IMG/VR virus record: IMGVR_UViG_3300029288_000163
Coordinates: 6,787-70,786 of that record
Strand: one strand, 5' to 3'
Source of the DNA: a virus
Lineage: Duplodnaviria; Caudoviricetes
Length of the DNA: 64,000 bases
Under the pieces are notes generated by a model, which worked only from the letters and a program-made list of their open reading frames with translations, was not told the origin of the DNA and ran no database searches. Of this stretch, positions 1 to 24,290 are shown one piece after another (position 1 is the first letter of the stretch; every line of letters starts with the position of its first letter). Made by a program: the position numbers and the translations under genes.

Positions 1-376
1 CAATTTCTTCTGTTTCTGAGTACAGGGAAAAGTCTCTTACAGGCTTCTTCTTTTCCGTTTTCTTTCCCTTAAGATCCTTCATCTTCTTCTTGGCTTCTGC
101 AATAAGCTGTTTCGCACCCTCAAGGGTTGGGTGATATCGCAAATCCCCCTCTTTCAAAAGGAACGTCTCAACTGCCTTCAATGATTTAAACGAAACTTCG
201 TCGTATTCTCCCGCCCATCACGAACAACCACTAGCAGAAAGAATAACGAACCTCTTTCCTGCTGGTGCCTTCTTGTCGTAGTAAATTCCTGTTTGATCAA
301 CCTCATAGGACTCCGATTGATCAATAAAGAAAAGCTCTACCAATTCCTTGCGTCTTTCATCAAATCCGTATTCCAT
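1..376 (-). CDS. Hypothetical phage protein with an in-frame TGA at codon 53 (SGCS*W); candidate selenoprotein; runs off the window
   Basis: AAAAGGAG RBS and ATG at 376. TGA at 218-220. The frame then stays open to position 1. Confidence 0.6.
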
Positions 377-393
377 TTAGTTACTCCTTTTAG

Positions 394-1146
394 CTAAAGA
401 TCTACCAAATACTTCTCTTTGTAATGCGTTTGCTCACCTCTGTAACCGTAGGCATTACAAACACATCTGGTATTCCCCAAATTTATATCCTTGAACGAAT
501 GCGTGTGCCCATATACCCACAAAGCAGGTTCGTAAGTGGTTATCAAATCATCGCAGTTTGTTGCAAATGCCCCGTTCAAAGGACTGCCCTTGAATTGAGA
601 AGATATTAAGGAAAAACTTGGCATATGATGGGTAACTACTATCGTTTTAATCCCGCTTTTCTTGTTATGCTTCAGCTTCTTCTCTAACCATTTCCGAGAT
701 TCGAAATGAGCATTAATGAAATCTTCCGGCATAACCTTACGAAATTTCCCGTTGTCCACCGCAGTTATCAAATCAAAATCATTCAACCCAAAAACTGCTT
801 GAGCTACACACCTTTGGCTGTCGTAATCTGTCCACAATGCACAGCCAAGAATCGAAGTGGTATTGATAACTATTTCTTCGTTTTCTAGAAGGTATGCGTT
901 ATCAATCTTTTTTACAGCGTGTTTGTAACCTTTACGAGAATCTGGAAAAATGTTGTCGTAATATTCATGATTCCCAAGCACGTAAACAATAGGGGCCGTT
1001 TCATTTACTTTACGAACCTGGGAAAACATTTCACCAACTTTACCGGGAGTAGTTGCTACATCACCAGCAAAAATAAGGAGATCTGCTTCCTTGCTAATTG
1101 ATGGGAGATAACCATGCATGTCACTAACTATTTGCAATTTGGTCAT
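394..1146 (-). CDS. Calcineurin-like metallophosphoesterase
   Basis: SDMHG, AGD, GNHE, THH and GHTH motifs. Confidence 0.9.
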   Translation of the reverse strand: MTKLQIVSDMHGYLPSISKEADLLIFAGDVATTPGKVGEMFSQVRKVNETAPIVYVLGNHEYYDNIFPDSRKGYKHAVKKIDNAYLLENEEIVINTTSILGCALWTDYDSQRCVAQAVFGLNDFDLITAVDNGKFRKVMPEDFINAHFESRKWLEKKLKHNKKSGIKTIVVTHHMPSFSLISSQFKGSPLNGAFATNCDDLITTYEPALWVYGHTHSFKDINLGNTRCVCNAYGYRGEQTHYKEKYLVDL

Positions 1147-1481
1147 GGCTTTAATGCGTCTTCTCTGGGAAGCGTTACTAATTTAACCCCAAGCTTATCC
1201 GCTATCTTTTGGCACACAGCACAGGGCTCAATTGGTAGCAAATTCCCCGCTTTCCCTACACGGCAAACAATTATGCGAACAATTCCGCGAGCTTTAGCTT
1301 GCTCCATTATCAAACGTTCTGCGTGCCAACCGCCACCAAACTGATTAAACCTTGGCCGATTAGTTCTTGACATGACCGGGATTCCGCTACGATTCAGTCC
1401 GATTGCTGCAACTGAAAATTTGCAGATAGATTGGCCCGCTTTTGTTCTGGCACGCTCGATTATTTCTAAATCTGTACACAT
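1143..1481 (-). CDS. Small zinc-dependent cytidine/nucleotide deaminase-like protein
   Basis: HAE ... PCAVC deaminase signature. Confidence 0.75.
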   Translation of the reverse strand: MCTDLEIIERARTKAGQSICKFSVAAIGLNRSGIPVMSRTNRPRFNQFGGGWHAERLIMEQAKARGIVRIIVCRVGKAGNLLPIEPCAVCQKIADKLGVKLVTLPREDALKP

Positions 1482-1490
1482 AACTTTGTT

Positions 1491-1518
1491 AATATAGGCA
1501 CTAATTCTGGCTTGTCAA
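1491..1518 (-). promoter_or_regulatory. sigma70-like promoter
   Basis: TTGACA-16nt-TATATT. Confidence 0.7.
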
Positions 1519-1542
1519 TAGGGAAAATTCAATCTTTTCCGC

Positions 1543-1971
1543 CTACAGCCACGGAAACCCTACCTTTTTGTAATGCTTGTAAACTTGTCGGTAAAGTTTT
1601 ACCAAATCTCGGAAGATGATGAATTCTTGCCTTTCCGCAGAACATTCGCTAGTTATTTGTGCCCACCAATTTCTATAAGGTGAATCATCATCAAAGCAAT
1701 TCTTTTTCCACATTTTCTGCAATGGACAGAATTTGCAAGTATTGTGGTCATCATACATCAAACATAGCCCACAATAACCTGTCTGACCACGATCCTTATT
1801 CATAGGATGCCATTTTGCAACTGATAAGGCAACAGCACCCAGTAATCCGTAGGTGTAAAGGAATTCATTGATTTCCTCTTTAGTGAAGGAAGGGCTCAAT
1901 TCAATAAACTCTTCCCAGGTCTGACATACTGGAGCTAAACTCCTGCGTGTTTTAAGGTCTGCAACCTTCAT
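1543..1971 (-). CDS. Cys-rich hypothetical protein; first 17 codons derive from the IS right end
   Basis: ORF with CGLC/CKFC pairs; ATGA overlap with the tnpB stop. Confidence 0.6.
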   Translation of the reverse strand: MKVADLKTRRSLAPVCQTWEEFIELSPSFTKEEINEFLYTYGLLGAVALSVAKWHPMNKDRGQTGYCGLCLMYDDHNTCKFCPLQKMWKKNCFDDDSPYRNWWAQITSECSAERQEFIIFRDLVKLYRQVYKHYKKVGFPWL

Positions 1972-2978
1972 GCAGTTGCCTCTTTAGGGGTATCAGTGCT
2001 CCCCTTGCCAACATCTCTGTCTGCTGGCAATTGAAGAATGCCTTGATGACGAAGTGCTATGACAAAGGCAGCATTTACGTCGGCATCATCAACGTGCCCA
2101 CAATGGGTACACTTGAACTTCTTTCCTTTTCGAGTGCCTAGAAGTCCACACCGGGAGCATTGCTGGCTCGTATAGTGAGGATCAATCTTGACAACAGGAA
2201 CCCCAAGCAGTTTGGCCTTGTATTCTATGAACTGTGCGAGTTGATAGAAAGACCAACTGTTCAAGGAGCCCTTGAATTCTTTGGATCGTTTCTTAGTCTT
2301 TCGAATTCCTGTAAGATTCTCAAGAACAATACCGGTGTTGTTTTCTACTGCATAATCTACTATCCTCCTGGAAATCTGATGGTTCAAATTTCTAACTTTC
2401 CTGGCCTCTCGATTCTTTATCTTTTTAACTAGCTTGTTCTTTACTTTCTTTTGCAGGTTCTTCCTCTGGGCCTTGTACTTCCGGTGGAGATGATATGCTT
2501 CCTTGCCTAACTTCAGAACTTTTCCAGTTGTTGGATTTGCAGCAACCAAACAATGTCCCGTTGTATTCAAGTCCACCCCAAGCCAAGCTTCTGGTTGCAT
2601 TGGTGGCTTCTCTGGCACAGTAACCGCCACATAAGCATATTTATTGTCAAGCACAATTTGGTTTATTTTAACAAATTCAGTAAAATGATAAGTTAAAGTG
2701 AGCTTTAAACAAGCAACCCATAAAACTTTGTTCTTAGTGTCCGGTTTAATTGCCTGCCCAGGAACAATAAGATTAACATTGGAAATTTTCTTTATCTTTT
2801 TATCACGCCCATATTTTCTAAGAATTTGACACGCAATAGCAGCCTTAAGCCCTATATGTTTTACAGCAGAAGATGAAAATTGATTTGGGTTTTTAAGCGC
2901 AAACTCAGCCACCTGTCGAGCTTTTGCTAGCTCCACAGAAAAATCCCGACCATGCTTAATTTTGTATGTTAGTATCAT
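1968..2978 (-). CDS. tnpB: TnpB RNA-guided nuclease
   Basis: RuvC-I GVDLN, RuvC-II VLENL, Zn finger CSRC/CTHC, RuvC-III DADVNAA. Confidence 0.93.
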   Translation of the reverse strand: MILTYKIKHGRDFSVELAKARQVAEFALKNPNQFSSSAVKHIGLKAAIACQILRKYGRDKKIKKISNVNLIVPGQAIKPDTKNKVLWVACLKLTLTYHFTEFVKINQIVLDNKYAYVAVTVPEKPPMQPEAWLGVDLNTTGHCLVAANPTTGKVLKLGKEAYHLHRKYKAQRKNLQKKVKNKLVKKIKNREARKVRNLNHQISRRIVDYAVENNTGIVLENLTGIRKTKKRSKEFKGSLNSWSFYQLAQFIEYKAKLLGVPVVKIDPHYTSQQCSRCGLLGTRKGKKFKCTHCGHVDDADVNAAFVIALRHQGILQLPADRDVGKGSTDTPKEATA

Positions 2979-3373
2979 TTATTCTTCTGATCTTCAATAT
3001 ACGCTTTTATTGCTTCCTCCGAAATTTGCCCCACTGCTGCACAAAAATAACTTCTGGTCCACAAACAAGGCAACCGACTTTTCAGAAAAGGAAACTCTTC
3101 CCTTAATTTCCGGGATGTGTAGCCTTTCAGTTGCCCTACAACCCAGTGTACCGCATCAACAGGACTTGCTTTAACAAACAAACGTACATGATCTGGCATA
3201 ACTTCTAAAGACACAATTTCTATTCCCAGTTGATTTGCCTTCTCCTGAAGATAGATTTTCAACTTAGCCTCAACCTCGTAATCCAGAACCTTGCGCCTGT
3301 ACTTGGAACACCAAATAAGATGATATCCTAAATTGAAAACTGATGTTCTACTTGTTTTCCATCTCTTGTCCAT
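2975..3373 (-). CDS. tnpA: IS200-type Y1 transposase with mutated HUH motif (HVR); likely start MDKRWK
   Basis: YHLIWCSKYRR, MPDHVRLF, LWTRSYF and YIEDQ motifs. Confidence 0.9.
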   Translation of the reverse strand: MDKRWKTSRTSVFNLGYHLIWCSKYRRKVLDYEVEAKLKIYLQEKANQLGIEIVSLEVMPDHVRLFVKASPVDAVHWVVGQLKGYTSRKLREEFPFLKSRLPCLWTRSYFCAAVGQISEEAIKAYIEDQKNK

Positions 3374-3467
3374 ACCTATTAGTTGCCTGTCAACCAACTA
3401 TTTATGATTTTAAAAAATTATTTTTTATTTCACTCTCCCTACAACGAAAAAAGGAAATTTTTCAACT

Positions 3468-6472: not shown

Positions 6473-7209
6473 TACCTAACCATAAGGCCTCTTTTGCCTT
6501 TGTCAAACAAAAAAGACTCCGAATCTGAAATTTCGTAATTGACCAGTTCAGCAACTTCCCGTGGGTCCATTTTGTATTCGCTAGCCACAGTAAAAATTGA
6601 AACAAGCATGTTCTCCCGTTTTGCAATTTCCCAAACCCGATCCTTTACCTCATTTGCCTGCTTACGCGGACGCATTGGTAAGGCATTCAATGACTTATCT
6701 GTTGGTGAAAGTTCTTCGTTAAGTGGCGACATTAACGGATTATCACCAATTGTTTGCGTACCCATAGGAACGTCGTCAGCTTTCTTGTCTTTCAACTTCT
6801 TTTCCATCTTCTTCAATTCAGGATAATAGGAATTCCCCAATTCTTCCAAATGATCGCTGGCTATCTCAATTGCAACATCATAATCGTCTGTGTGCTCAAG
6901 CTCTACTTCCGCCCCCTCTTGGAGATCCTTCTTCTCAAAGTCACTAGGCGTTTTTCCATCTGCTTTGCCTCCTGGGAGTCGGTCTTCCCATTCATCGTCA
7001 CTGGGTAGCCCGTTAGCTCTGGCCACTCTTCTTCCAATTCTCCCCCAGTCATTAAGGCTATTAATGAGCCGTCCAAGTCGATCAAAAGCTCTTTGATGGG
7101 AATTTCCAGTCCGTGAGGAATTACGGTAGTCTGCGAAAGCCTTGTCCAATTCGAATCCGACAATTCTATCGAGTATCTTATATGCACGTCGTTGAAAGGT
7201 ATCTGCCAT
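6472..7209 (-). CDS. Modular phage protein with DUF5661-like domain
   Basis: LPGGKADG ... GAEVELEHT ... IASDHLEE ... YY motif. Confidence 0.65.
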   Translation of the reverse strand: MADTFQRRAYKILDRIVGFELDKAFADYRNSSRTGNSHQRAFDRLGRLINSLNDWGRIGRRVARANGLPSDDEWEDRLPGGKADGKTPSDFEKKDLQEGAEVELEHTDDYDVAIEIASDHLEELGNSYYPELKKMEKKLKDKKADDVPMGTQTIGDNPLMSPLNEELSPTDKSLNALPMRPRKQANEVKDRVWEIAKRENMLVSIFTVASEYKMDPREVAELVNYEISDSESFLFDKGKRGLMVR

Positions 7210-8543: not shown

Positions 8544-8628
8544 TGGTGCGCGTGGCCCGGTTCGCACGGGCATAGCCTTGCGGCTGAAAACTTTTGAGGT
8601 TTTTGTGTATACACTCCACCACACGCGC
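8544..8628 (-). tRNA. tRNA-Leu(CAA)
   Basis: Cloverleaf GCGCGTG/CACGCGC, anticodon loop CTCAAAA, long variable arm, encoded ACCA. Confidence 0.9.
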
Positions 8629-8643
8629 AATAAATATGGAATT

Positions 8644-8715
8644 TGTGCCTTCTAGGGTTTGCACCTAGGTAATTCCGTTATGAGCGGAATATGCTGACTT
8701 CTGCATTAAGGGCAC
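8644..8715 (-). tRNA. tRNA-Met or tRNA-Ile2 (CAT)
   Basis: TTCCG-CTCATAA-CGGAA anticodon arm; CTAGG-TGCAAAC-CCTAG T arm; no encoded CCA. Confidence 0.85.
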
Positions 8716-8719
8716 CTAG

Positions 8720-8792
8720 CGCCCATTCTAGGATTTGCACCCAGGGTCTTTCGGTTAACGGCCGAATGCTTTTGCTACTAAGCTAAATGGGC
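8720..8792 (-). tRNA. tRNA-Asn(GTT)
   Basis: GCCCATT/AATGGGC acceptor stem; TTCGG-CCGTTAA-CCGAA anticodon arm; discriminator G. Confidence 0.9.
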
Positions 8793-9277
8793 AATGACGG
8801 AAGAGGAGCAAAACCGGAATGTACTTCAATATGACACCGACAACAAAGAAGGACGCATTTATCTAGTTCTGCTTTTACTTTTTCCCAAGATCTTGTATAT
8901 CCTTTATGTGATATGTTAAAATCTTTTGTACTAGGATCTAAATGATGCGTTGCAAGTGCCTGTATGCATTCACTATACCCACACATAATGCATTTTCCAC
9001 CTAAATACTGCACCGCCTTTTCTTTTAGTTGCTTGCGCCTCCTATCCACATAATAATTATTCTTGCATTTTTTGGAACAAAATTTAAGACCATTTACTGT
9101 ATTAGTACACAAATGCCAGGCACATTTACCAGAATAGTTCCTACCTCTGCCTTTTGTACGCAGGCCAAATTTTTTCATCCACCAACGTACATTAGTTTGA
9201 GAAGTTTCCAACCTGGAACTTATCTCACGTTGGCTACACCCCTCTTCTACTAATTCTTTTAATATTTTTTCTTCCAT
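8783..9277 (-). CDS. HNH homing endonuclease with N-terminal HTH, inside the tRNA cluster
   Basis: GGKCIMCGY ... HHLDP ... KCVLLCCRCHIEVH. Confidence 0.85.
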   Translation of the reverse strand: MEEKILKELVEEGCSQREISSRLETSQTNVRWWMKKFGLRTKGRGRNYSGKCAWHLCTNTVNGLKFCSKKCKNNYYVDRRRKQLKEKAVQYLGGKCIMCGYSECIQALATHHLDPSTKDFNISHKGYTRSWEKVKAELDKCVLLCCRCHIEVHSGFAPLPSLPI

Positions 9278-9283
9278 GCATTA

Positions 9284-9306
9284 AGAATAGCACACAAAGT
9301 TTAGGG
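9284..9306 (-). promoter_or_regulatory. Candidate phage-specific promoter (leaderless)
   Basis: CCCTA-N12-TATTCT, 6 nt before the ATG. Confidence 0.5.
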
Positions 9307-9328
9307 GAATTAAAGCTGACTGAGCTAG

Positions 9329-9400
9329 AAGCGCGGGGACGAGGCGAACGTTCGCTAACCAGATCCAAATTCTGGTGTTTTACCACTAGACTACCGCGCC
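9329..9400 (-). tRNA. tRNA-Gln(TTG), somewhat atypical
   Basis: GGCGCGG/CCGCGCT acceptor stem; CCAGA-ATTTGGA-TCTGG anticodon arm; T-stem mismatch and T loop TTCGCCT. Confidence 0.7.
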
Positions 9401-9840: not shown

Positions 9841-9963
9841 GTTAGGGTAGGGACTTCCAGCGTCACCCCACCAGTGCTAGAGGCTTGATGCCCCGGCCTT
9901 ACGGCTTGTAGCTGTTTCATGTCGCTGCCAGCAACATTTTGTTCAATGATTACAAATACTTCC

Positions 9964-10339
9964 GGTGGAGCCGGTGATATTGAAATCACGTCCGAAAAGT
10001 TCAGACATTCGTATCTACGTGTGTATTGGCAATTCTTACTTGCATTAGTCAGGAAGCCACTAACCTATAACTGTGCAAGGGTTACTCAAAGTTTGACACG
10101 CTGAGTATTCGTGTGTTCTATCCTTGTAATCACGCCCCTTGATTTACTAGGATTCCTCAATCAAGGCACGTTCCCATTAAGCCGCTACTGCCATCGGAGC
10201 GAAAGCAGGCGCAACCATCGTCGGGAATTGGATGACATTGTTTTTGGCAATTGTCAGTGAGGGTCTTTTTAACCCGGTAGCCCACAACCGGGACACGCAA
10301 CAAATCTCGTCAATCTCTCCGTCGAAACCTGACGGCCCC
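9964..10339 (-). ncRNA. ssrA: tmRNA; tag (A)AKNNVIQFPTMVAPAFAPMAVAA* at 10177-10248
   Basis: 5' GGGGCCGTCAGGTTTCGAC; 3' GACGTGATTTCAATATCACCGGCTCCACC; tag ORF ending in AA. Confidence 0.93.
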
Positions 10340-13362: not shown

Positions 13363-13647
13363 CTAGTTGTGCTTAGAAAGGCAAATTGTTTCAAAACGAC
13401 CATAAGGGCATTTCAAAATTACTTCGGTTCCACAAGCTTTTTCTGATACTTTGAGAACATTGCAACCAGGATTCTTGGCTTTGGCATAATCGACCATAGT
13501 ATTAGCACAGCCGACAATACTGACGACTGACCAAGCAAGAAAAACAAAAGCGATGAGTACCAAAATTACCGTCATTACATTGAACCACTTTGGAGGAACA
13601 TCCCCAAAATATATTTTTGCCTTCTTCTTTTTTGGAAACTTAATCAC
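13363..13647 (-). CDS. Small membrane protein
   Basis: TM helix followed by a Cys-rich tail. Confidence 0.55.
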   Translation of the reverse strand: MIKFPKKKKAKIYFGDVPPKWFNVMTVILVLIAFVFLAWSVVSIVGCANTMVDYAKAKNPGCNVLKVSEKACGTEVILKCPYGRFETICLSKHN

Positions 13648-15458
13648 TTTAGGTACTCAGTTGGAATGCAATAAGTACTGCCCTCTTCACAAGTTACCAT
13701 AAAAGCATCCCCGTGGCCGTCATACAAGTTCTTAATAAAGCCTTTGGTACCCTTGGGAAGCTCCGTCGTACCCCCGCCCCAAATTGGCATTTCGAAAGCT
13801 TTAGAGAGTGTTACCTTATCCCCAATAGCAAAGGGAAAATCCTTCAGCGGTACTTCTGCCGGGTCAATACCTTCGTGGATCTGGCCAAGCTCAACTACTT
13901 CGTATTCCCCATCATTTTCTTCTTTTTCTTTCTCAGCACGTTTCCCTATTTTTGTTAATTCATTGGAGGGACGCGCAATTCTGTCTTCTTTATTACCTTC
14001 GAACTTATCAAAATCAATACTCGCCATAGGAATAGAATAACTGGAAGAATCCACATCAACAACAGTACCATCACCAAACCTGGGGTGATTTACTCTATCC
14101 CCTGATTTTAGAGATTCCTGAGCCCGTTTCCCATAACTTACCAAATCTGAAGCATCCTTATCCGATAGACCATAAACTGCTTTAATGGTGTTCTTAATGG
14201 TTGCCGGGTCGCTCTTACGCATTGATTTAACCATTGCCAAAGCATCCTGCAATACGTCATCCATTGGCCGGTCAGGTTCGTCCATATATGCGGAGTCTTG
14301 AGCAAATTTACTAGCAACAACTTCTTTACCTTGATTGGTAGCATCCCCTTTATGCTTTTCAACCCAAGCCTCGCCCTTGGAAGTAACCACCAACTTATCA
14401 TCAATTTCTTCCACTAAGCCAAATTGCTTAAGTGCATGTAATGTGGACCATTTGCCACCATGAAAATCTCCAGTTAATGCTAGCAAGGCCTCTGCTTGAG
14501 ACTTTGATAGTTTTACATCAGCAATACTGGAACCACCTTCACCCTCTTGAGCCCTCTTATTAGCAAACAATGCTGGAGGCATTTCGCTCTGTTCTTCAAA
14601 CATGGGATCTAGTGTTACGCCTTCCATTAGCGACATTACATCAGCGGCCATATTCGAATCAATGCCAATTCCACTGTCATCAATTACAGAATCGGAAACC
14701 TCTTGCTGAAGTGCTGTTACATACAATTCATCCATTGCTTGCCGAATATCATCAAGTGCTCGCCAGGTGTTGGTGGAATCTGTGTACAAAGCTTCCAATT
14801 GCTTCTTTACGTCCAAGTATTCCTTCATCTTTGCTAATGCTTGATCCTCGAATTTTGTGCCACGGAAACCATCAAGGAATTCTTCAAGCAGCGTTCCACA
14901 AGCTTCTTTGTCAGATCGATATGCCTTGATTACGATAATTGTTTCGTTGGGTTTGGCACATTTCATACGGGACAAGTTGAGCATGTTCAATTCGTACTCA
15001 AGATTGGCAAGCTTCTCCTCTGCCATTCTTCGTGCCTGTGCTTGATCCTGATTACCGCAGGATTGGTCACGGGAGGCAGCGAAATATTGTTCAAGCAAGG
15101 ATTCAGCCTGATCCTTGAATGCTGTTGCTTTCAATGTACAATACCAATCGGCATAATCCATCGAACTCCAATAAGCTGTTTTCTTAGTTGCCATTTTACC
15201 CACTCCTGCACCCTGGCCTAAAGAACCCCTGGAAGCCTCAAATTCATCAACGGCTGCTTGCGCGGCTTCATCAATTAATGCACTCGAATTATCGTCAATT
15301 TCTTCATCGGTTTCGAATTGTGACAAATCTATTGGAATATCAGTTGTATAAACGTGTGCGCCCTCTTCAAATAAGGAAACGTCAAAGTGCCCCTCTTCTG
15401 TTGGGGCTACCAAACAGTCGAAACCACGAAAAAGGATTTGGTAAGCTGTTTCGGTCAT
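13644..15458 (-). CDS. Large modular acidic protein (SH3-like modules), putative virion-internal
   Basis: 604 aa; KxA junctions; GDRVNHPRFGDGTV module. Confidence 0.6.
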   Translation of the reverse strand: MTETAYQILFRGFDCLVAPTEEGHFDVSLFEEGAHVYTTDIPIDLSQFETDEEIDDNSSALIDEAAQAAVDEFEASRGSLGQGAGVGKMATKKTAYWSSMDYADWYCTLKATAFKDQAESLLEQYFAASRDQSCGNQDQAQARRMAEEKLANLEYELNMLNLSRMKCAKPNETIIVIKAYRSDKEACGTLLEEFLDGFRGTKFEDQALAKMKEYLDVKKQLEALYTDSTNTWRALDDIRQAMDELYVTALQQEVSDSVIDDSGIGIDSNMAADVMSLMEGVTLDPMFEEQSEMPPALFANKRAQEGEGGSSIADVKLSKSQAEALLALTGDFHGGKWSTLHALKQFGLVEEIDDKLVVTSKGEAWVEKHKGDATNQGKEVVASKFAQDSAYMDEPDRPMDDVLQDALAMVKSMRKSDPATIKNTIKAVYGLSDKDASDLVSYGKRAQESLKSGDRVNHPRFGDGTVVDVDSSSYSIPMASIDFDKFEGNKEDRIARPSNELTKIGKRAEKEKEENDGEYEVVELGQIHEGIDPAEVPLKDFPFAIGDKVTLSKAFEMPIWGGGTTELPKGTKGFIKNLYDGHGDAFMVTCEEGSTYCIPTEYLK

Positions 15459-18275
15459 TTACTTTATTCCCTGTGCTTTAATTTGCTCAAGCTCATCTTC
15501 CAGGGAGTCTAAAACATCTGTATTTTGCTTTTCTCCCCACCATTCATTTGTCTCATCCTCCAGTACAAACAAAGGCGGGAAAGCAAAAGCTCTTGAAACC
15601 ATTTGTTGATACACATCTGGTGCATATTCAGCTAAATCATTATATAATTGATCAACACGTTCCGGACCCCATTTAGACGTATCCTGGCTTTTTGGTTCAT
15701 CCGGAGTTGCATCCTCTCCAAATAGCTCTTTCTTCCAATTATGGTCATAATCTGGAGGACCGGCTTTCTTATCAAAAGGGCGCTTCACCGATTTCTTTCC
15801 AATTCCCTTCAAAATAGGCTTGACGTCCTTATTCTTCGTTTCCTTTGGGCCACTATGAAGATCCTTGTCGCGAGCGTCCCAAGTAGCTTTCCATGGATCA
15901 TCAATACTGGGATCTTTCTCCATGTTATTGAAAATCTGTGCGTACTTCTTGCCAGGAGGAAGAATACGTAGACAAGATGCAGACCACATTTTCTTGAATG
16001 TTGAGTTAAGAGGCTGAATATCATCTAAAGCAACACGGTACTCATAGCCCCGTGCTTTTACAATTGCGCTATTCTCAGCTTTGTTAACCTCAACAATTGT
16101 TCCACGAATTGCACCGTCATGGCCTTGGAACTTTACGGAATCCCCAGCTTCCATTGGCGTTTTCGTACCGTCGTAAATATGGGCGTCATCTACTGCTTCA
16201 TCCATTACTTCTTGCCATTCATCCTCAACTTGTGCCGTCTTGTCTCTGCCCCTATTATTCGAACCATAAGGATTGAGCACATAGCCGTCATTGACCAAAT
16301 GGGTTGCCCAAGCATCTTGCGAAGCTGTTGATACTACTTCAAGAATATAATTACGCAATACATGAATCCAGGAACGTGGGAATGTGTCTTTTCCCTCGTC
16401 TTGGGCTTTGTCCATAAGCTCCTTGACTTTTTCGTAACCGCCTGGGACATGAGTGCCCATTGAGGCAACGCGGGAAGCTTGATGACCACCAGTCCAATCC
16501 TTGAATGTGTGGTAGAAATCATCCTCGTCATCGTCCTGCGGGTCCATACCCCACATACTCAGGCCTTCAGCAGATGAATCAGCAAACTCTAACTGCTCTG
16601 GTGTATACTTCTCAAAATACTCATCATCCGTATCACCGGGCTTCAACGTAAGGAAGCCAAGAAGGCCACGAACTGTATCATCTGAGTCAATCGCGTGCAT
16701 GGGAGATGGGCTATAATCGTCCCCTGAGAAAACTACATTTCCTTGTGGATCAGAGAATGTGTAACGAATGTAGTTCCTTCTCTGGCCACGTTCGTACTTT
16801 TCCCCATTATCCCACATTTGCAAACGGTATCCATCAATATCTACGTCTCTTAGCAAAGATTCGTCATCTTCCTGAGCCTTCTTTGCAAAATGATTTAGAT
16901 CAAGGTCGGAATCTTCTTTAGTATCTGAAGACTCCTCTCCATATGCTCCGTACCCATCTCGTTCATATGAGAACTTTAGCCAATTACGCGGTATAACTTC
17001 CTTAAGTCCTCGAATAATTGATTCATCTGACTTAGCGGATTCTGTGGAAGTTACATAAACATAATCCTCTTCCCAATGCGCCACTTGTTCCCCGCCCAGG
17101 CCCATCTTCTCCAGCACTTGCCCATCAGTTGTCAGCCATTTTCCATCAGCCGGTTGCTTCTCTGAAAAAGCTTCAAGAACCTTCTTATCAATTGGGGGAA
17201 GTGCAGCCCTCTTGACTCTTGCCCTCAAAGGCTCATTCTGGAATTTCTTTGCATCATCCATATCCGCCATTGGTTCATTCGGCGTAATCTTGTCGGTAAG
17301 GTCGGACTCCGCATCCTTATCCAAATCACTAACAACGCCAATTTGTCTGGGGTCTACACCAAAGTAAGTCGTTTGATCTTCATCACTAATAAAGGGGAAA
17401 CCTTCTTTTACGTGCTTTGGTGTCTCTGCAAACTTGTTGTAATATTCAAGACCATTTGCCAAATCAATTGGGTCAAGATCTTCAAACTTAGATCCAATAA
17501 AGTTAGCAAGATCCGTCCAGTCAAGTTCTATATCATTTTCAATATTGTACTGCATATAACCAACAATTTCACCACCAATTTGTTCCGCTACTGCACTGGC
17601 GCTACCAAAATATGCCTTCTTATATGTCCTTCTAATGGTTGAAACTGGACCAATTCCCTCACGGGCTTGATAACCAATCTCGTTCCTAAGTTCTGTGGCA
17701 CTTTCTCTTTCGTCCCTGGTAAGAGGTGCGCTGAATTGCTTACGAACCGGGATGAGTTCGTAAGAGCTTGCACGTTGGACCATAGCATTAACTGACGACT
17801 GAGCCAATACAATATCCCGGCCATTGAACTTGATTACCGATGGAGGTAATACTTTCCCACTAACCACTTGGACCGGAACGTCAAATGATTGCTTAAGCCC
17901 ACCAACAGTAGCGAACTTGCACATTAATACAATCGTCCCGCTTAATACATCATCAGTTGTCCCAGCAGTCTTTACATTCTTTACACCAAGGTACGTAATA
18001 GCTGGCGAAATTGGGAAATCGAATTGGTCAATAACTTCCCGCGCCGTTAGAATAGCTGTTTTAATCAGATCAGGCAATTTCTTTGAATTGTTCAAAAGTC
18101 CCAGTCTATTGGCACTGGAGAACATATCTGACAAATTGGGTTTGCCAGTTGAATCACCTAGATCAATAGACTGTGCGTGCTTACGAATACGCTTTTCCTT
18201 AGCTGCGCTCTTCTTCTTGGCGTCTTTAAACCAAGGATGATTTTTCACATGTTCTTTATCCATAAGATTTGTCAT
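15459..18275 (-). CDS. Large modular acidic protein, putative virion-internal polyprotein
   Basis: 938 aa; about 8 K/R-x-A junctions. Confidence 0.6.
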   Translation of the reverse strand: MTNLMDKEHVKNHPWFKDAKKKSAAKEKRIRKHAQSIDLGDSTGKPNLSDMFSSANRLGLLNNSKKLPDLIKTAILTAREVIDQFDFPISPAITYLGVKNVKTAGTTDDVLSGTIVLMCKFATVGGLKQSFDVPVQVVSGKVLPPSVIKFNGRDIVLAQSSVNAMVQRASSYELIPVRKQFSAPLTRDERESATELRNEIGYQAREGIGPVSTIRRTYKKAYFGSASAVAEQIGGEIVGYMQYNIENDIELDWTDLANFIGSKFEDLDPIDLANGLEYYNKFAETPKHVKEGFPFISDEDQTTYFGVDPRQIGVVSDLDKDAESDLTDKITPNEPMADMDDAKKFQNEPLRARVKRAALPPIDKKVLEAFSEKQPADGKWLTTDGQVLEKMGLGGEQVAHWEEDYVYVTSTESAKSDESIIRGLKEVIPRNWLKFSYERDGYGAYGEESSDTKEDSDLDLNHFAKKAQEDDESLLRDVDIDGYRLQMWDNGEKYERGQRRNYIRYTFSDPQGNVVFSGDDYSPSPMHAIDSDDTVRGLLGFLTLKPGDTDDEYFEKYTPEQLEFADSSAEGLSMWGMDPQDDDEDDFYHTFKDWTGGHQASRVASMGTHVPGGYEKVKELMDKAQDEGKDTFPRSWIHVLRNYILEVVSTASQDAWATHLVNDGYVLNPYGSNNRGRDKTAQVEDEWQEVMDEAVDDAHIYDGTKTPMEAGDSVKFQGHDGAIRGTIVEVNKAENSAIVKARGYEYRVALDDIQPLNSTFKKMWSASCLRILPPGKKYAQIFNNMEKDPSIDDPWKATWDARDKDLHSGPKETKNKDVKPILKGIGKKSVKRPFDKKAGPPDYDHNWKKELFGEDATPDEPKSQDTSKWGPERVDQLYNDLAEYAPDVYQQMVSRAFAFPPLFVLEDETNEWWGEKQNTDVLDSLEDELEQIKAQGIK

Positions 18276-18601
18276 TTTTTCTCTCGCTTTGCTACTTGTC
18301 CCAGAACTATTTTACCTTGCTTAATCGTTGCCCGATTACTCACACCGTCTGCCTTTTCTGGCCCAGCCTTTTGCGATACGGGTTCTGTCCCCCACGGCCT
18401 GTCAATTGCTACGATCATTGAAGTCCGTATCGTGGCTTCTATTGTATCACCTGTTTTGCTAGGAAATATAAAGTGGAGTACCGAATTCTGCTCAATCTCG
18501 TTCCATACCTCTTTTAATGAGGAAAAGGGTAGAAGAGCTATTAATTGATGGCTCCCGGCAAAGAATCGGTATGCGTACAACTTCTCTTGTTTGAGTTTCA
18601 T
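18272..18601 (-). CDS. Hypothetical protein
   Basis: AGGAG RBS; overlap coupling. Confidence 0.55.
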   Translation of the reverse strand: MKLKQEKLYAYRFFAGSHQLIALLPFSSLKEVWNEIEQNSVLHFIFPSKTGDTIEATIRTSMIVAIDRPWGTEPVSQKAGPEKADGVSNRATIKQGKIVLGQVAKREKK

Positions 18602-18619
18602 GGTGGGATTAAACTCCTT

Positions 18620-19216
18620 TTAGATCATGTCGGCAAGCGCTGCGACTAAGCTAATATCTGCTTCCTTCTCCTCTTCAAGTTCTTTTAAATCTCTTTTTGA
18701 TACTGCGGAAAGTAGAACACGCTCACCAATAGCTACGTCATTATTTAAACACCAACCACCAGATACTTCAATAACGCCATCGCACTCTTCGCAAGACCAT
18801 CTATCATCATGGCCAACTCTTGTGTTTTCCTCTAATTGAATTATCTGGCCATCACAAAGAAATATGAGATCAAGACTGAAAGGAACACTGCCTTGGTGGA
18901 AAGTAACATCAGTAAATGGTTCATAAGGAAAGTACAAGCCGCAATCTTCATCTAACGCTTTATGTCGTTGTAAACCAATCTTTTTCTTTTCCGGGGTATC
19001 AGCTAATGCACAACGAATTTTGACATCACGTTCAACCCAAAGAGCATTAACGCGAGCAACGTGTGAAAAGTGATTTTTCTTGATATTAGGAACAGATCCA
19101 GCTTCGTATAAGGTAACAGTTTGACCGTCGGGAGCAAGCAACCCGAAATCCTCAGAATAATTTAAGGAGTGAGATTTTAATAGCATCCTATTAATTCTTC
19201 TTAGCTGGCCTTCCAC
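18620..19216 (-). CDS. DUF192-family protein
   Basis: ADTPEKKKIGL ... GLYF ... FSLDLIF ... VIEVSGG. Confidence 0.75.
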   Translation of the reverse strand: MEGQLRRINRMLLKSHSLNYSEDFGLLAPDGQTVTLYEAGSVPNIKKNHFSHVARVNALWVERDVKIRCALADTPEKKKIGLQRHKALDEDCGLYFPYEPFTDVTFHQGSVPFSLDLIFLCDGQIIQLEENTRVGHDDRWSCEECDGVIEVSGGWCLNNDVAIGERVLLSAVSKRDLKELEEEKEADISLVAALADMI

Positions 19217-19739
19217 GATGACGCTTCTCTACCGGCATTTCTTCTTCTGCGGGTGCTTCTGCGGGTGCCTCTACGGGTTCCTTAGCCAATTCTTCAACGG
19301 GCTGATCAATTACTGGTTCCTCAGTAACAGTTTCCTCAACGGGTTCTTCACCAACTACTAAATCAACCGCTACCATACCTTCTGGAACTTCCATATCAGG
19401 ATCTTCCTCAACCAATGGAACCTCAATTAGCTTTTCTTCAATTGGCTTTGTCTCAATTACTTTGCTTGAATCTTCCATTACCTGTATAATACGTTGCCCA
19501 ATCAATTTCGTAAGCTCTGACTGATCTTTTAATTCTGCGATTGATAATCCAGTAACCTTTACGAGATCCTTTGAGCAAGCATTAGCGATATTTACGTTAA
19601 TTGCCGCTGAACGAAGTGCTCTTTTGTAATTGCATACATTCATTCCGTCAGTTTTATCAATATTTTTATAAACATTGAACGAACATGGGCCGCGTTTATC
19701 GCCAACACCAGTATTGAGAATAACGTACTTTTCAGTCAT
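19191..19739 (-). CDS. Hypothetical protein with acidic E/P-rich tail and terminal RGRP
   Basis: ORF composition. Confidence 0.6.
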   Translation of the reverse strand: MTEKYVILNTGVGDKRGPCSFNVYKNIDKTDGMNVCNYKRALRSAAINVNIANACSKDLVKVTGLSIAELKDQSELTKLIGQRIIQVMEDSSKVIETKPIEEKLIEVPLVEEDPDMEVPEGMVAVDLVVGEEPVEETVTEEPVIDQPVEELAKEPVEAPAEAPAEEEMPVEKRHRGRPAKKN

Positions 19740-19756
19740 ATTGTCTTTGTCCTTTG

Positions 19757-20029
19757 TTAGCCATTAACCACTTCAGCGCCAACAAGCATACCCTGCTCAA
19801 CCAAAGGATCAAGCAACCCCTGTAGCGAGGAAGCTAGCTCATTAGCCGAACCTTCATCCGCCATATCAAACATAATACCGCCTTGCCCACCTAGATATAG
19901 ATCAACAGCAAAAACCTCAGATCCATCAGACAAAGTTGAAGGCTTAACAGAAACCCTAATCTTTGTTCCTTCTTGAGCAGTTTTTGCTATTCTTTCTAAG
20001 CTAGAATCACTAAGTCCCTTTTTCCACAT
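19757..20029 (-). CDS. Small protein with shared MWKKG leader
   Basis: MWKKGLSDSSLERIAKTAQEG. Confidence 0.65.
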   Translation of the reverse strand: MWKKGLSDSSLERIAKTAQEGTKIRVSVKPSTLSDGSEVFAVDLYLGGQGGIMFDMADEGSANELASSLQGLLDPLVEQGMLVGAEVVNG

Positions 20030-20051
20030 TGTCTTTTCCTTTGTTTGTTGG

Positions 20052-22682: not shown

Positions 22683-22727
22683 TACTCCATACGAATGCTG
22701 GACATTTTAAAAACCTTATGGAACCTA

Positions 22728-23954
22728 TTATACGAGATCTTCGTCAGGGTCTTCACCATCATCTTCAGTCTCATCTTTAGCGTCATTAATAAAATCATCT
22801 TCCTCAGATTCTTCTTCAGGGCCGTCAAAAAACTCTAGTTCAGGGTTAAAATACCAAGCATACTTTTCATCAACGCCCTCTGTAGCGTCAAAGGGTAAAT
22901 TAGAATACCCACCAAAAGACATTGGTTCCCCAGCTTCAAGAGCGTCTAAGATAAATTGATGTCCTTCAGATCCCTTTTCAACAAAAACAGAACCAACTAA
23001 ATCATCACGACTATCATGGCCCTCGTCTCTAGCGTTTCCTACATTCTTTTTAAGCCAACGCAGCATATTTCGCTCAATTTGCATAGCGGCCTGAGTAATG
23101 CCCTCTGAATCTAGGGTACTACTGTGTGGGTGCTCATCATCGTCTGCATCTTCCATAAAACCATCAATAATAGCAAACCCGTAGTTTAATTCATTCTGGG
23201 ATTGGGCCGTATGGAAAGGCTTATCCTGCATCCTTAACTTGAGATCCCTGTTATAATTTTCTTCATCAAGGCCCTTTTCTCTATCCCGTTGTACCTTTAA
23301 CTTTTCTTCCTCTTCGGGCGTTCGTTCAAAAGGGCGTTCATCGTCCCCATTAACCAAGGCTAGGATGAATTGACGTGCCTTTTTGCAATTTGGCGAATTT
23401 GATTGCAGGCCGTTTTCTAGAATAACTCTTTCGTAATCAGCCTGGGAACCGATGTCTTGAGCAAGAGCAGCTAATTTTGAGATTTCCAAAGAAAGATACC
23501 CACTCTCACCGATCTTTTCCAATACTTCACACACTGCGGACCTGGGGTAATTTTTGCGGAAATGGTCATTTAGTGCAGTGAATTTAGCTGAAGTAATCGA
23601 AGCTGTACGATCCTTGCGCCACATGGAAGTAAGCATTGTTTCCAAAGCGCGGACCCCTATGTCATTTTCGCTAACCTTGGCTTGCTTAACTACCTGAAGT
23701 GCCGAAAATACGTCAGTAATTGGCATATGCGCGTTCTCTTCAGTAGCCATTTGCTCAAGCTCTTGGGCAAGGAGGCGCTTTACGTGCTCGATATGGGGAA
23801 TATTCGTCTCGAAAGCTTGCTCATTGTCTAGATCAGCTTGCCTACGCTGTGCTACAACTGGTGCGTAGAGCTTTTCTAAACGAGAAACGCTGAGATCCCG
23901 TACTGACTGTTGAGAATAGTTAGCTAAAAGTTGCCGAGTCTTATAAAGTGCCAT
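22728..23954 (-). CDS. Hypothetical protein, possibly head-associated
   Basis: 408 aa; RQAD and HTAQ junctions; acidic tail. Confidence 0.6.
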   Translation of the reverse strand: MALYKTRQLLANYSQQSVRDLSVSRLEKLYAPVVAQRRQADLDNEQAFETNIPHIEHVKRLLAQELEQMATEENAHMPITDVFSALQVVKQAKVSENDIGVRALETMLTSMWRKDRTASITSAKFTALNDHFRKNYPRSAVCEVLEKIGESGYLSLEISKLAALAQDIGSQADYERVILENGLQSNSPNCKKARQFILALVNGDDERPFERTPEEEEKLKVQRDREKGLDEENYNRDLKLRMQDKPFHTAQSQNELNYGFAIIDGFMEDADDDEHPHSSTLDSEGITQAAMQIERNMLRWLKKNVGNARDEGHDSRDDLVGSVFVEKGSEGHQFILDALEAGEPMSFGGYSNLPFDATEGVDEKYAWYFNPELEFFDGPEEESEEDDFINDAKDETEDDGEDPDEDLV

Positions 23955-24014: not shown

Positions 24015-24290
24015 TTAAACGGTTGTTAATTCTTTTTGCTCTAAAGGAACAAGATCACGCAAAAGGAAGACTTTGTTGCAGGAACCGCATTTTACTTCCA
24101 GCGGCAGGCTCCCGAATATTGTTGAAAGTTGGGCTTGACAGCACGGGCTTGTTAGTTCTCCACAATCTTCTTCAGTGTCCCCGTCAGCACAAGGATCGGC
24201 CAGCTTTTTGAGGAAGTGTTGGATGGGATTGGGGGTATCCTTATTAGAGAAATCAGCTAAGGTTGAGAAAGGGGAAAGGGGATTAGTCAT
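24015..24290 (-). CDS. Small zinc-ribbon protein
   Basis: SPCC ... CGSC. Confidence 0.55.
   Translation of the reverse strand: MTNPLSPFSTLADFSNKDTPNPIQHFLKKLADPCADGDTEEDCGELTSPCCQAQLSTIFGSLPLEVKCGSCNKVFLLRDLVPLEQKELTTV

What the first reader, a model, noticed from the sequence alone, without database searches (positions are those of the whole stretch)
1..376. Candidate phage-encoded selenoprotein (SGCS-UGA-W with SECIS-like hairpin)
Seen: a strong RBS and ATG at 376 start a frame with one TGA (218-220, codon 53) in the context SASGCS*WAGEY, and the frame stays open and protein-like for over 70 more codons. Fifteen nt after the UGA lies a hairpin GACGA-AGUU-UCGUU whose loop has G in the second position followed by U. 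Established: bacterial SECIS elements sit just 3' of the UGA and usually have a G early in a small apical loop, and CxU is a known selenoprotein motif. Inference: I recall a phage family with an SGCSC motif, which would put the UGA at a Cys position. Genome-wide UGA recoding is unlikely because many genes here end in ATGA overlaps. The ORF track misses this gene.
Basis: partly seen in the sequence, partly recalled or inferred. Interest (0 to 1): 0.8.

Follow-up and report, generated by a model that had tools for sequence, protein, structure and literature searches.

The report
Candidate selenocysteine protein in a phage
A small phage gene has a stop codon exactly where nearly all its relatives have a conserved cysteine, which suggests but does not prove that the phage makes a selenium-containing protein, something I found no report of for phages.

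Summary
A minus-strand gene starts at an AAAGGAG ribosome-binding site and ATG (376-374). It has one TGA (220-218, codon 53) in the context SASGCS*WAGEY and stays open to the window edge.

The core inference holds. An exhaustive profile search found 115 relatives of about 100 aa with an ASGCSCWDGEY motif. Cys stands at the TGA position in 109 of the 114 aligned. The TGA lies in the beta3-beta4 turn of one confidently modelled domain. Family-conserved residues are kept about as well after the TGA (8 of 11) as before it (15 of 18).

Contigs from two other studies carry the identical sequence. Two diverged relatives (96% and 69% identical) have ORFs that end at the same codon. TGA is otherwise the commonest stop in the window, so the code is not reassigned.

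Weak points:
- The 'SECIS-like' hairpin is only -3.3 kcal/mol and no better than chance.
- No relative's DNA could be fetched.
- The host and its Sec machinery are unknown.
- The last 61 aa are a stand-alone gene in other contigs, which partly explains the long open frame.

Verdict: a credible Sec/Cys-homology selenoprotein candidate (about 0.5). The main rivals are a stable split gene or leaky read-through.

The parts
384..390 (-). Shine-Dalgarno-like AAAGGAG, 7 nt upstream of the ATG
   Evidence: Read directly.
221..376 (-). Codons 1-52: N-terminal half of the DUF7574-like domain (helix, beta1-beta3), ending ...SASGCS
   Evidence: The same 52-aa ORF (P0006) is on record from 3 contigs. Variants P0005 (96% identical) and P0105 (69%) end at the same codon.
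218..220 (-). In-frame TGA, codon 53, at the second Cys of the family's GCSCW motif. Proposed Sec codon.
   Evidence: Cys in 109 of 114 aligned homologues. Contigs of runs X2 and X3 are identical across it.
65..217 (-). Codons 54-104: second half of the DUF7574-like domain (W-x-G-E-Y, beta4, two helices)
   Evidence: AlphaFold2 model, pLDDT 87.2, beta4 57-63, helices 66-76 and 85-104. 8 of 11 family-conserved columns are matched. No ATG, GTG or TTG lies between the TGA and codon 66.
189..202 (-).
   Evidence: It exists but folds at only -2.7 to -3.3 kcal/mol and is not above chance.
143..164 (-). Second hairpin (9 bp with many G-U pairs, loop GAAA, -7.4 kcal/mol). Its loop starts about 62 nt after the UGA. 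It overlaps a GAGGGGG stretch just before the in-frame TTG that a gene caller took as a start (P0002).
   Evidence: 29 of 200 shuffles fold as well. By my recollection of the bacterial SECIS model (loop 16-37 nt after the UGA) it lies too far away.
41..64 (-). Lys-rich linker (about codons 105-112)
   Evidence: pLDDT drops to 63-76 here. The relative's in-frame indels lie here.
2..40 (-). Start of a C-terminal module (codon 113 onward, running off the window) that exists elsewhere as a stand-alone 61-aa protein. The window has Val (GTA) where those proteins have their Met.
   Evidence: (P0124-P0129, 69-85% identical).
394..1146 (-). Upstream neighbour: metallophosphoesterase (250 aa)
   Evidence: Pfam Metallophos 2.6e-13 and phrog_1649 6e-45.

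Best explanation
The gene encodes one polypeptide of about 173 aa, and UGA codon 53 is decoded as selenocysteine by the Sec machinery of a bacterial host. The product has three parts: a DUF7574-like phage domain (about residues 1-104), a Lys-rich linker, and a 61-aa module that is a separate gene in other contigs. In the domain, the second Cys of the nearly invariant G-C-S-C-W turn between strands beta3 and beta4 has become Sec, giving a C-x-U pair.

Shown here:
- the TGA is real and recurs in independent assemblies;
- it occupies a nearly invariant Cys column;
- it lies in the middle of a single folded domain;
- both halves keep the family's conserved residues;
- two diverged relatives have ORFs that end at the same codon;
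- TGA is an ordinary stop elsewhere in this phage.

Inferred, not shown:
- that the inserted residue is Sec;
- that the host has selA, selB, selC and selD;
- that some downstream mRNA element recruits SelB (the proposed hairpin is unconvincing, so it would be a weak or atypical SECIS);
- that the C-x-C or C-x-U pair is a redox or metal-binding site.

The biochemical role of the family is unknown. Its beta4-alpha fold resembles nucleic-acid-binding folds only weakly.
For: 1. The TGA is at 220-218 in an ORF with a good ribosome-binding site.
2. hmmsearch of 1.84 billion cluster representatives found 115 relatives at E<=0.001, most about 100 aa and matching across the TGA position. 114 were aligned, after dropping one 1033-aa hit. 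Column 53 is Cys in 109, Asn in 2, Trp in 1 and a gap in 2.
3. The AlphaFold2 model (pLDDT 87.2, pTM 0.75) puts codon 53 in the beta3-beta4 turn of one domain.
4. Of family columns with at least 60% consensus, the window matches 15 of 18 before the TGA and 8 of 11 after it. The matches after it include W54 and G56, inside the 12 codons that have no possible start codon.
5. A contig of run X2 (1-430) and one of run X3 (1-320) show 0 differences from the window.
6. P0005 (96% identical, on a 5063-bp contig) and P0105 (69% identical, on an 1831-bp contig) are 52- and 53-aa ORFs ending ...GCS at the same codon. The P0005 contig also carries a 107-aa downstream ORF, P0003, with 72% identity, conservative changes and a one-codon gap.
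7. A contig in X3 that is about 86% identical covers 1-320. Its only listed indels are in the linker and sum to -3 nt.
8. This is not a reassigned code: TGA ends 40 of 93 ORFs of 100 aa or more, and there are 11 ATGA overlaps.
9. Published metagenome criteria for new selenoproteins are an in-frame TGA, at least 2 Cys homologues with more than 50% TGA/Cys pairs, and at least 2 different sequences with the conserved TGA (PMC1976440, passages). About 13% of known bacterial selenoprotein genes lack a canonical SECIS (PMC13326102 and PMC12013277, passages).
Against: 1. There is no convincing SECIS.
   - The hairpin folds at -3.3 kcal/mol.
   - The 71 nt from the UGA fold worse than shuffles: -8.9 against a mean of -13.3, z +1.51, and 195 of 200 shuffles fold at least as well.
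   - 76% of 1430 TGA triplets on this strand have 57 nt downstream that fold at least as well.
   - 41% of all TGA triplets in the window pass the same loose hairpin rule.
   - Rfam finds nothing in 1-400.
2. No tRNA-Sec or other Sec gene was found in the 64 kb. No host genome is held.
3. I never saw a relative's DNA. That their stop is TGA, and that the 12 codons after it are conserved there, is unverified.
4. The C-terminal 61 aa form a stand-alone protein in 6 other clusters. Selection on that module explains part of the open frame. Gene callers also found in-frame TTG starts at codons 66 and 79.
5. UGA followed by U is, from my recollection of E. coli data, an efficient termination context.
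6. I found no report of a phage selenoprotein, so the prior is low.
Confidence: 0.5

Rival explanations
1. The UGA is a true stop and the gene is stably split or truncated. A 52-aa N-terminal peptide is made. A second product is initiated internally, at the TTG of codon 66, the TTG of codon 79 behind GAGGGGG, or the ATG of codon 99. That product carries the last helix or helices plus the 61-aa module. Both pieces are kept by selection.
For: - Gene callers split it this way in every assembly (P0006 with P0002, P0007 or P0008; P0005 with P0003).
- The 61-aa module is an independent gene elsewhere.
- There is no convincing SECIS.
- Both pieces are conserved between lineages.
Against: - The break cuts a single four-stranded sheet between beta3 and beta4.
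- Beta4 and the invariant W-x-G-E-Y would be untranslated, because there is no start codon for 12 codons. Yet the window keeps them.
- A random nonsense mutation would have to hit one of the two invariant Cys and then persist through 31% amino-acid divergence.
- The window has lost the Met that starts the 61-aa module elsewhere.
Confidence: 0.25
2. The UGA is read through at low level without Sec, by near-cognate tRNA-Trp or tRNA-Cys. This gives a little full-length protein and mostly the 52-aa product, so the stop acts as an expression attenuator.
For: - It needs no SECIS and no Sec machinery, which fits.
- One family member (P0050) has Trp at this column, so Trp may be tolerated.
- It explains the conservation of codons 54-104.
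Against: - It does not explain why the stop sits on the nearly invariant Cys.
- Cys is kept in 109 of 114 homologues, so a mostly-Trp product would probably be impaired.
- UGA-U is, by my recollection, a strong terminator.
Confidence: 0.1
3. It is a decaying pseudogene of the DUF7574-like gene. Only the downstream 61-aa module is still functional.
For: - Single in-frame stops are common in phage metagenomes.
- The module stands alone elsewhere.
- The linker is the most divergent part.
Against: - The N-terminal half is conserved at family positions across lineages that are 96% and 69% identical.
- The second half matches 8 of 11 conserved columns.
- The only indels listed for the 86%-identical contig are in the linker and sum to -3 nt, so the frame is kept.
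- The window lacks the module's own ATG.
Confidence: 0.1
4. It is an artefact or a different genetic code: either a sequencing or assembly error at codon 53, or a host that reads all UGA as sense.
For: None found. It was a reasonable prior for a single in-frame stop in a metagenome contig.
Against: - Contigs from two other studies are identical over the site.
- The 52-aa ORF is on record from 3 contigs, plus 2 variants.
- TGA ends 40 of 93 long ORFs, with 11 ATGA overlaps.
- Of the 7 other same-frame TGA junctions on this strand, 6 have an ATG or GTG within 10 codons. The seventh joins frames of only 55 and 45 codons.
Confidence: 0.02

Closest known systems
Bacterial selenoprotein genes predicted by Sec/Cys homology (the approach of Zhang and Gladyshev; PMC1976440, passages seen)
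   Same: A single in-frame UGA in an intact ORF. It aligns with a conserved Cys in most homologues and pairs with a nearby Cys (C-x-U here). Cys forms far outnumber the UGA form. The samples come from landfill and groundwater, and I assume these are largely anoxic, a setting the paper links to Sec use.
   Different: The gene is in a phage, not a cell. No stable stem-loop follows the UGA, whereas that paper reports one for every new family. The family has no known function. The Sec machinery of the decoding host is unknown.
Pfam DUF7574 (PF24459), small proteins of tailed phages
   Same: Similar size of about 100 aa. Weak HMM hits run across the TGA region: window protein 16.9 bits, homologues up to 28.7 bits. 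The best predicted-structure matches are DUF7574 proteins of Streptomyces, Gordonia and Rhodococcus phages (E 3e-3 to 2e-2, TM 0.42-0.59). The language-model neighbours of homologue P0009 are DUF7574 virus clusters, with scores of 0.88-0.89 that count only as leads.
   Different: The window protein scores below Pfam's cut-off of 27 bits. tblastn of it and two homologues finds nothing in 50,697 deposited phage genomes. It carries an extra fused C-terminal module and a UGA in place of Cys.
Poxvirus glutathione peroxidase selenoproteins (molluscum contagiosum, fowlpox; review PMC8310308, passages seen)
   Same: A virus-encoded gene whose UGA would be decoded as Sec by host machinery.
   Different: Those are captured eukaryotic host genes of known function with eukaryotic SECIS elements. 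This one is a phage-specific family of unknown function that would use the bacterial system.
Genome-wide stop-codon reassignment in phages (TAG or TGA recoding).
   Same: An in-frame stop codon in a phage gene that must be read through.
   Different: Here there is one UGA in one gene, at a Cys column. TGA is the commonest stop in the window and no suppressor tRNA was found.

Membership tests
Selenoprotein gene (bacterial Sec-UGA recoding) | In-frame UGA inside an otherwise intact, start-equipped ORF | tested here: met
   Identical in contigs of two other studies.
Selenoprotein gene (bacterial Sec-UGA recoding) | UGA aligns with Cys in homologues (at least 2 Cys homologues, more than 50% TGA/Cys pairs; criterion quoted from PMC1976440) | tested here: met
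   Cys in 109 of 114 aligned homologues. The flanking G50, C51, S52, W54 and G56 are each at least 96% conserved.
Selenoprotein gene (bacterial Sec-UGA recoding) | [quoted passage not shown] | tested here: inconclusive
   Three protein variants (P0006, P0005, P0105) end at the same codon. Their DNA was not obtainable, so the stop codon used is unseen.
Selenoprotein gene (bacterial Sec-UGA recoding) | SECIS stem-loop immediately 3' of the UGA | tested here: inconclusive
   Only a 5-bp hairpin of -3.3 kcal/mol, with loop AGUU starting 20 nt after the UGA. It is not above chance. No bacterial SECIS predictor was available. About 13% of known genes lack a canonical SECIS.
Selenoprotein gene (bacterial Sec-UGA recoding) | Sec machinery (selA, selB, selC, selD) in the decoding cell | not testable with these tools
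   No genome is held for the window. The host was not identified. No tRNA-Sec was found in the 64 kb.
Selenoprotein gene (bacterial Sec-UGA recoding) | Selenium in the protein | not testable with these tools
   Needs 75Se labelling or mass spectrometry.
Pfam DUF7574 (PF24459) | HMM score at or above the gathering cut-off (27 bits) | tested here: not met
   The window protein scores 16.9 bits, E 0.0062. Of 10 homologues scanned, 1 reaches the cut-off (P0025, 28.7 bits), 4 score below it and 5 have no hit. I file it as a DUF7574-like sister family, not a member.
Pfam DUF7574 (PF24459) | Shared fold with DUF7574 proteins | tested here: inconclusive
   The BFVD top hits include three named DUF7574 proteins, but with E between 3e-3 and 2e-2 and TM between 0.42 and 0.59.
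Reassigned genetic code (TGA as sense, tables 4 or 25) | TGA absent as a stop and frequent inside genes | tested here: not met
   TGA ends 40 of 93 ORFs of 100 aa or more, there are 11 ATGA overlaps, and no suppressor tRNA was found.

The most novel reading that the evidence does not exclude
This would be the first phage-encoded selenoprotein. A clade of a widespread DUF7574-like phage protein family changed the second Cys of its invariant G-C-S-C-W turn to selenocysteine. It has kept that UGA through at least three diverged lineages in landfill and groundwater phages, and relies on the host's SelB and tRNA-Sec with a minimal or atypical SECIS. If so, phages can tap the host's selenium pathway, and bacterial SECIS requirements are looser than current models assume.
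Probability: 0.45. Interest if true: 0.8.

Novelty: new variant of a known kind. Interest (0 to 1): 0.65.

Why it matters
The viral selenoproteins named in the review passages I read are two poxvirus glutathione peroxidases (PMC8310308). My literature searches turned up no phage example. In the two recent bacterial selenoprotein resources, the words 'phage' (PMC12013277) and 'phage' or 'virus' (PMC13326102) do not occur in the main text. I could not see their supplements.

If this is a phage selenoprotein, three things follow:
- Phages would be shown to exploit host Sec recoding.
- The Sec trait would become a marker for predicting the host.
- There would be a natural test case for a weak or atypical bacterial SECIS.

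It would also point to the C-x-C turn as the functional site of a large phage protein family of unknown function.

If it is not Sec, it is still a tidy example of a conserved in-frame stop in the middle of a domain, and worth a read-through assay.

Tried and rejected
Relatives' DNA
- The search for related loci with P0001 in viral contigs and with P0003 in metagenome contigs confirmed nothing.
- A degenerate motif pattern with TGA gave 4 hits in viral contigs, all out-of-frame chance matches.
- A longer pattern gave 1 hit in metagenome contigs and 0 in genome contigs. The one hit was a chance match in a 2.1-kb contig with telomere-like repeats at both ends.
- Read laying showed an 86%-identical contig over 1-320. 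Its letters at 218-220 were not among the rows displayed, because 123 rows were cut.

Known phages and plasmids
- megablast of window 1-3000 against deposited phages gave no match.
- tblastn of P0001, P0012, P0009 and P0127 against phages, and of P0127 against plasmids, gave no match.
- The search for related loci with P0124 in viral contigs confirmed nothing.

Host
- No genome is held for the window.
- I scanned genome contigs with the neighbouring TnpB. The best relatives are only 50-63% identical and mostly in archaeal MAGs.
- I do not take that as the host, because the window carries a full tmRNA (98 bits) and a family-A DNA polymerase.
- The family profile found nothing in 5 handle genomes or in 401 sampled genomes of one phylum. 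That is a sample, not evidence of absence.

Expression
- No RNA holder was listed for the stretch.

Function
- Foldseek against the PDB gave no match at E<=0.001. The best were PUR-alpha and WGR domains at E of 0.08 or more.
- VIA-align gave a best Z of 6.5, below the level the tool calls meaningful.
- Gene neighbourhoods of 6 Cys-form members in IMG/VR vary.

Other candidate Sec genes in the window
- I examined 7 other same-frame TGA junctions on the minus strand. None looks like a read-through case.

Literature
- 'DUF7574' occurs in 0 papers.
- No phage selenoprotein paper appeared in the listings.
- The one paper holding 'phage-encoded', 'selenoprotein' and 'selenocysteine' is a Bacillus phage genomics paper. 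I saw it only as a listing and did not read it.

Full report
WHAT IS THERE. On the minus strand, AAAGGAG (390-384) is followed 7 nt later by ATG (376-374), just after the TAG of a metallophosphoesterase gene (394-1146). The frame reads 52 codons ending SASGCS and then TGA at 220-218. It continues WAGEYDEVSFKS... for 72 more codons to the window edge. Stored proteins from the same phage (P0002, P0007, P0008) show that the frame runs 48 codons further, so a read-through product would be about 173 aa.

WHAT THE WINDOW IS. It is a phage contig. It carries a family-A DNA polymerase, an SbcC-like nuclease, a DNA methyltransferase and a homing endonuclease. It also has four tRNAs and a full-length tmRNA. 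An IS200/IS605 TnpA-TnpB pair lies next to the gene. No whole genome is held. The same DNA occurs in landfill and groundwater metagenome runs.

The standard code applies. Of 93 ORFs of 100 aa or more, 40 end in TGA, 38 in TAA and 15 in TAG. 11 of 121 minus-strand ORFs of 60 aa or more start in an ATGA overlap. I checked the 7 other same-frame TGA junctions on this strand. Six have an ATG or GTG within 10 codons, and the seventh joins two short frames.

THE FAMILY AND THE CYS COLUMN. I built a profile from the window protein and its few close relatives (A1). I searched it against 1.84 billion cluster representatives. It found 115 proteins at E<=0.001, of which 73 were at E<=1e-10. Most are about 100 aa and match across the TGA position. 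I aligned 114 of them with the query, after dropping one 1033-aa multi-repeat hit.
- The motif A-S-G-C-S-C-W-D-G-E-Y is the core of the family.
- At the TGA column, 109 of 114 have Cys, 2 have Asn (both also lack the first Cys), 1 has Trp (P0050) and 2 have gaps.
- The family is only marginally Pfam DUF7574. The window protein scores 16.9 bits against a cut-off of 27. One of 10 homologues scanned reaches the cut-off.
- The best predicted-structure matches are DUF7574 proteins of actinophages, at E about 3e-3 and TM about 0.5.
- The language-model neighbours of homologue P0009 are DUF7574 virus clusters, with scores of 0.88-0.89 that count only as leads.
- A Cys-form motif scan of IMG/VR gave 9 hits, of which 6 are true family members in viral contigs.

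ONE DOMAIN, NOT TWO. AlphaFold2 with 89 family sequences gives pLDDT 87.2 and pTM 0.75. The model has a helix at 5-11, strands at 13-19, 25-33, 43-51 and 57-63, and helices at 66-76 and 85-104. Codon 53 lies in the turn between beta3 and beta4, so a stop there cuts a four-stranded sheet in half. Between the TGA and codon 66 there is no ATG, GTG or TTG. Yet this stretch keeps the invariant W54 and G56. Across family columns with at least 60% consensus, the window matches 15 of 18 before the TGA and 8 of 11 after it. The part after the stop therefore looks as constrained as the part before it.

NOT AN ERROR, AND CONSERVED.
- Contigs from two other studies are identical to the window: X2 over 1-430 and X3 over 1-320.
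- The 52-aa ORF (P0006) is on record from 3 contigs.
- P0005 is 50 of 52 identical and sits on a 5063-bp contig. P0105 is 36 of 52 identical and sits on an 1831-bp contig. Both end ...GCS at the same codon.
- A 107-aa downstream ORF, P0003, has one contig on record, also of 5063 bp. I take it to be the same contig as P0005. P0003 is 72% identical to the window's downstream ORF. The changes are conservative and there is a one-codon gap in the linker.
- An X3 contig about 86% identical over 1-320 has listed indels only in the linker, and they sum to -3 nt. This matches P0003, but I cannot prove it is the same lineage.
- Inference only: most of its 45 substitutions cannot be amino-acid changes, given how few differences P0005 and P0003 show. 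That would mean purifying selection on both halves.
I could not see any relative's DNA. That their stop is TGA remains unverified.

THE SECIS CLAIM FAILS AS EVIDENCE. The hairpin at 202-189 exists, but the following results show it is not evidence.
- It folds at -2.7 to -3.3 kcal/mol.
- 29 of 200 shuffles of the 21-nt stretch, and 117 of 200 shuffles of the 37-nt stretch, fold at least as well.
- The 71 nt from the UGA fold at -8.9 against a shuffle mean of -13.3, and 195 of 200 shuffles fold at least as well.
- 76% of 1430 TGA triplets on this strand have 57 nt downstream that fold at least as well.
- 949 of 2318 TGA triplets pass the same loose rule, and 335 of 2318 pass with G-U early in the loop.
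- Rfam finds nothing in 1-400, even at E<=10.
- A stronger hairpin (-7.4 kcal/mol, 164-143) has its loop about 62 nt after the UGA. By my recollection of the bacterial model (16-37 nt), that is too far.
This lowers the Sec reading but does not remove it. 87.4% of entries in BSepDB have a canonical SECIS, and bSECISearch missed at least 13% of the known selenoprotein genes in the test genomes (passages).

The last 61 residues occur as a stand-alone 61-aa protein in 6 other clusters. These are 69-85% identical and sit on contigs of up to 172 kb. In the window lineage this module is fused in frame behind the DUF7574-like domain through a Lys-rich linker. The window has Val (GTA) where the stand-alone proteins have their Met. 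Selection on this module explains part of the long open frame after the stop. That gives the split-gene rival some weight. It does not explain the conservation of codons 54-104.

WEIGHING. Three points favour decoding of the UGA:
- the stop lies on one of two invariant Cys, out of about 100 codons;
- ORFs in lineages that differ by 31% in amino-acid sequence end at the same codon;
- a beta-strand and motif that could only be translated by read-through are kept.
These meet two of the published Sec/Cys-homology criteria. A third is met at the protein level only. Against Sec: there is no convincing SECIS, no known host, no Sec genes in the 64 kb, and no phage precedent that I could find. My estimates:
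- Sec: about 0.5
- stable split or truncated gene: about 0.25
- Sec-independent leaky read-through: about 0.1
- decaying pseudogene: about 0.1
- error or a different genetic code: about 0.02

FUNCTION. Unknown. Foldseek against the PDB has nothing at E<=0.001. The best hits are PUR-alpha and WGR domains at E of 0.08 or more. VIA-align gives a best Z of 6.5, below the level its own notes treat as meaningful. That the C-x-C or C-x-U pair in an exposed turn is a redox or metal site is my inference.

NOVELTY. The review passages I read name only two poxvirus selenoproteins. My four literature searches listed no phage case, and supplements were closed. If confirmed, this is a known mechanism in a new place: a phage gene and a new selenoprotein family, possibly with an atypical SECIS.

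Noticed in passing
window 9963-10339 (-), with tRNAs at 8544-9400 (-): The phage encodes a full-length tmRNA (Rfam 98.3 bits; ARAGORN predicts a 23-residue tag ending in VAA) next to tRNA-Leu(CAA), Met, Asn and Gln(UUG). This argues for a bacterial host.
   Followed up: partly
window 1968-3397 (-): An IS200/IS605-type pair: a 140-aa TnpA-like ORF and a 336-aa TnpB-like ORF, joined by an ATGA overlap, about 1.6 kb upstream of the gene. The best TnpB relatives in species genomes are 50-63% identical. They are mostly in archaeal MAGs (Methanosarcina, Thermoplasmata, Micrarchaeota), which sits oddly with the bacterial hallmarks of the phage.
   Followed up: partly
window 2-40 (-) and beyond the window edge: The C-terminal 61-aa module of the read-through product is a stand-alone gene in 6 other protein clusters (P0124-P0129). 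Here it is fused in frame and has lost its own Met.
   Followed up: partly
protein P0050 (from a 5806-bp Logan contig): This family member has Trp at the Cys/UGA column (motif ...GCSWW...). It could be a real TGG, or a TGA translated under table 4 by a gene caller. If the latter, it would be another, distant UGA lineage.
   Followed up: no
window 24283-25452 (-): A homing endonuclease with GIY-YIG-like and HNH-related PHROG hits (phrog_314, 3e-48) lies among large ORFs of unknown function.
   Followed up: no
window 13644-23954 (-): Four large ORFs (604, 938, 876 and 408 aa) have no Pfam or PHROG match at the thresholds used.
   Followed up: no
window 6763-6814 (-): A weak sub-threshold Rfam hit to the archaeal C/D-box sRNA sR52 (29 bits against a cut-off of 50, E 0.05). 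It is probably chance.
   Followed up: no
L005 (2132-bp metagenome contig): The only metagenome hit to the TGA motif pattern was a chance match in a contig with GGGGTTT-type telomere repeats at both ends. It looks like a ciliate nanochromosome.
   Followed up: no
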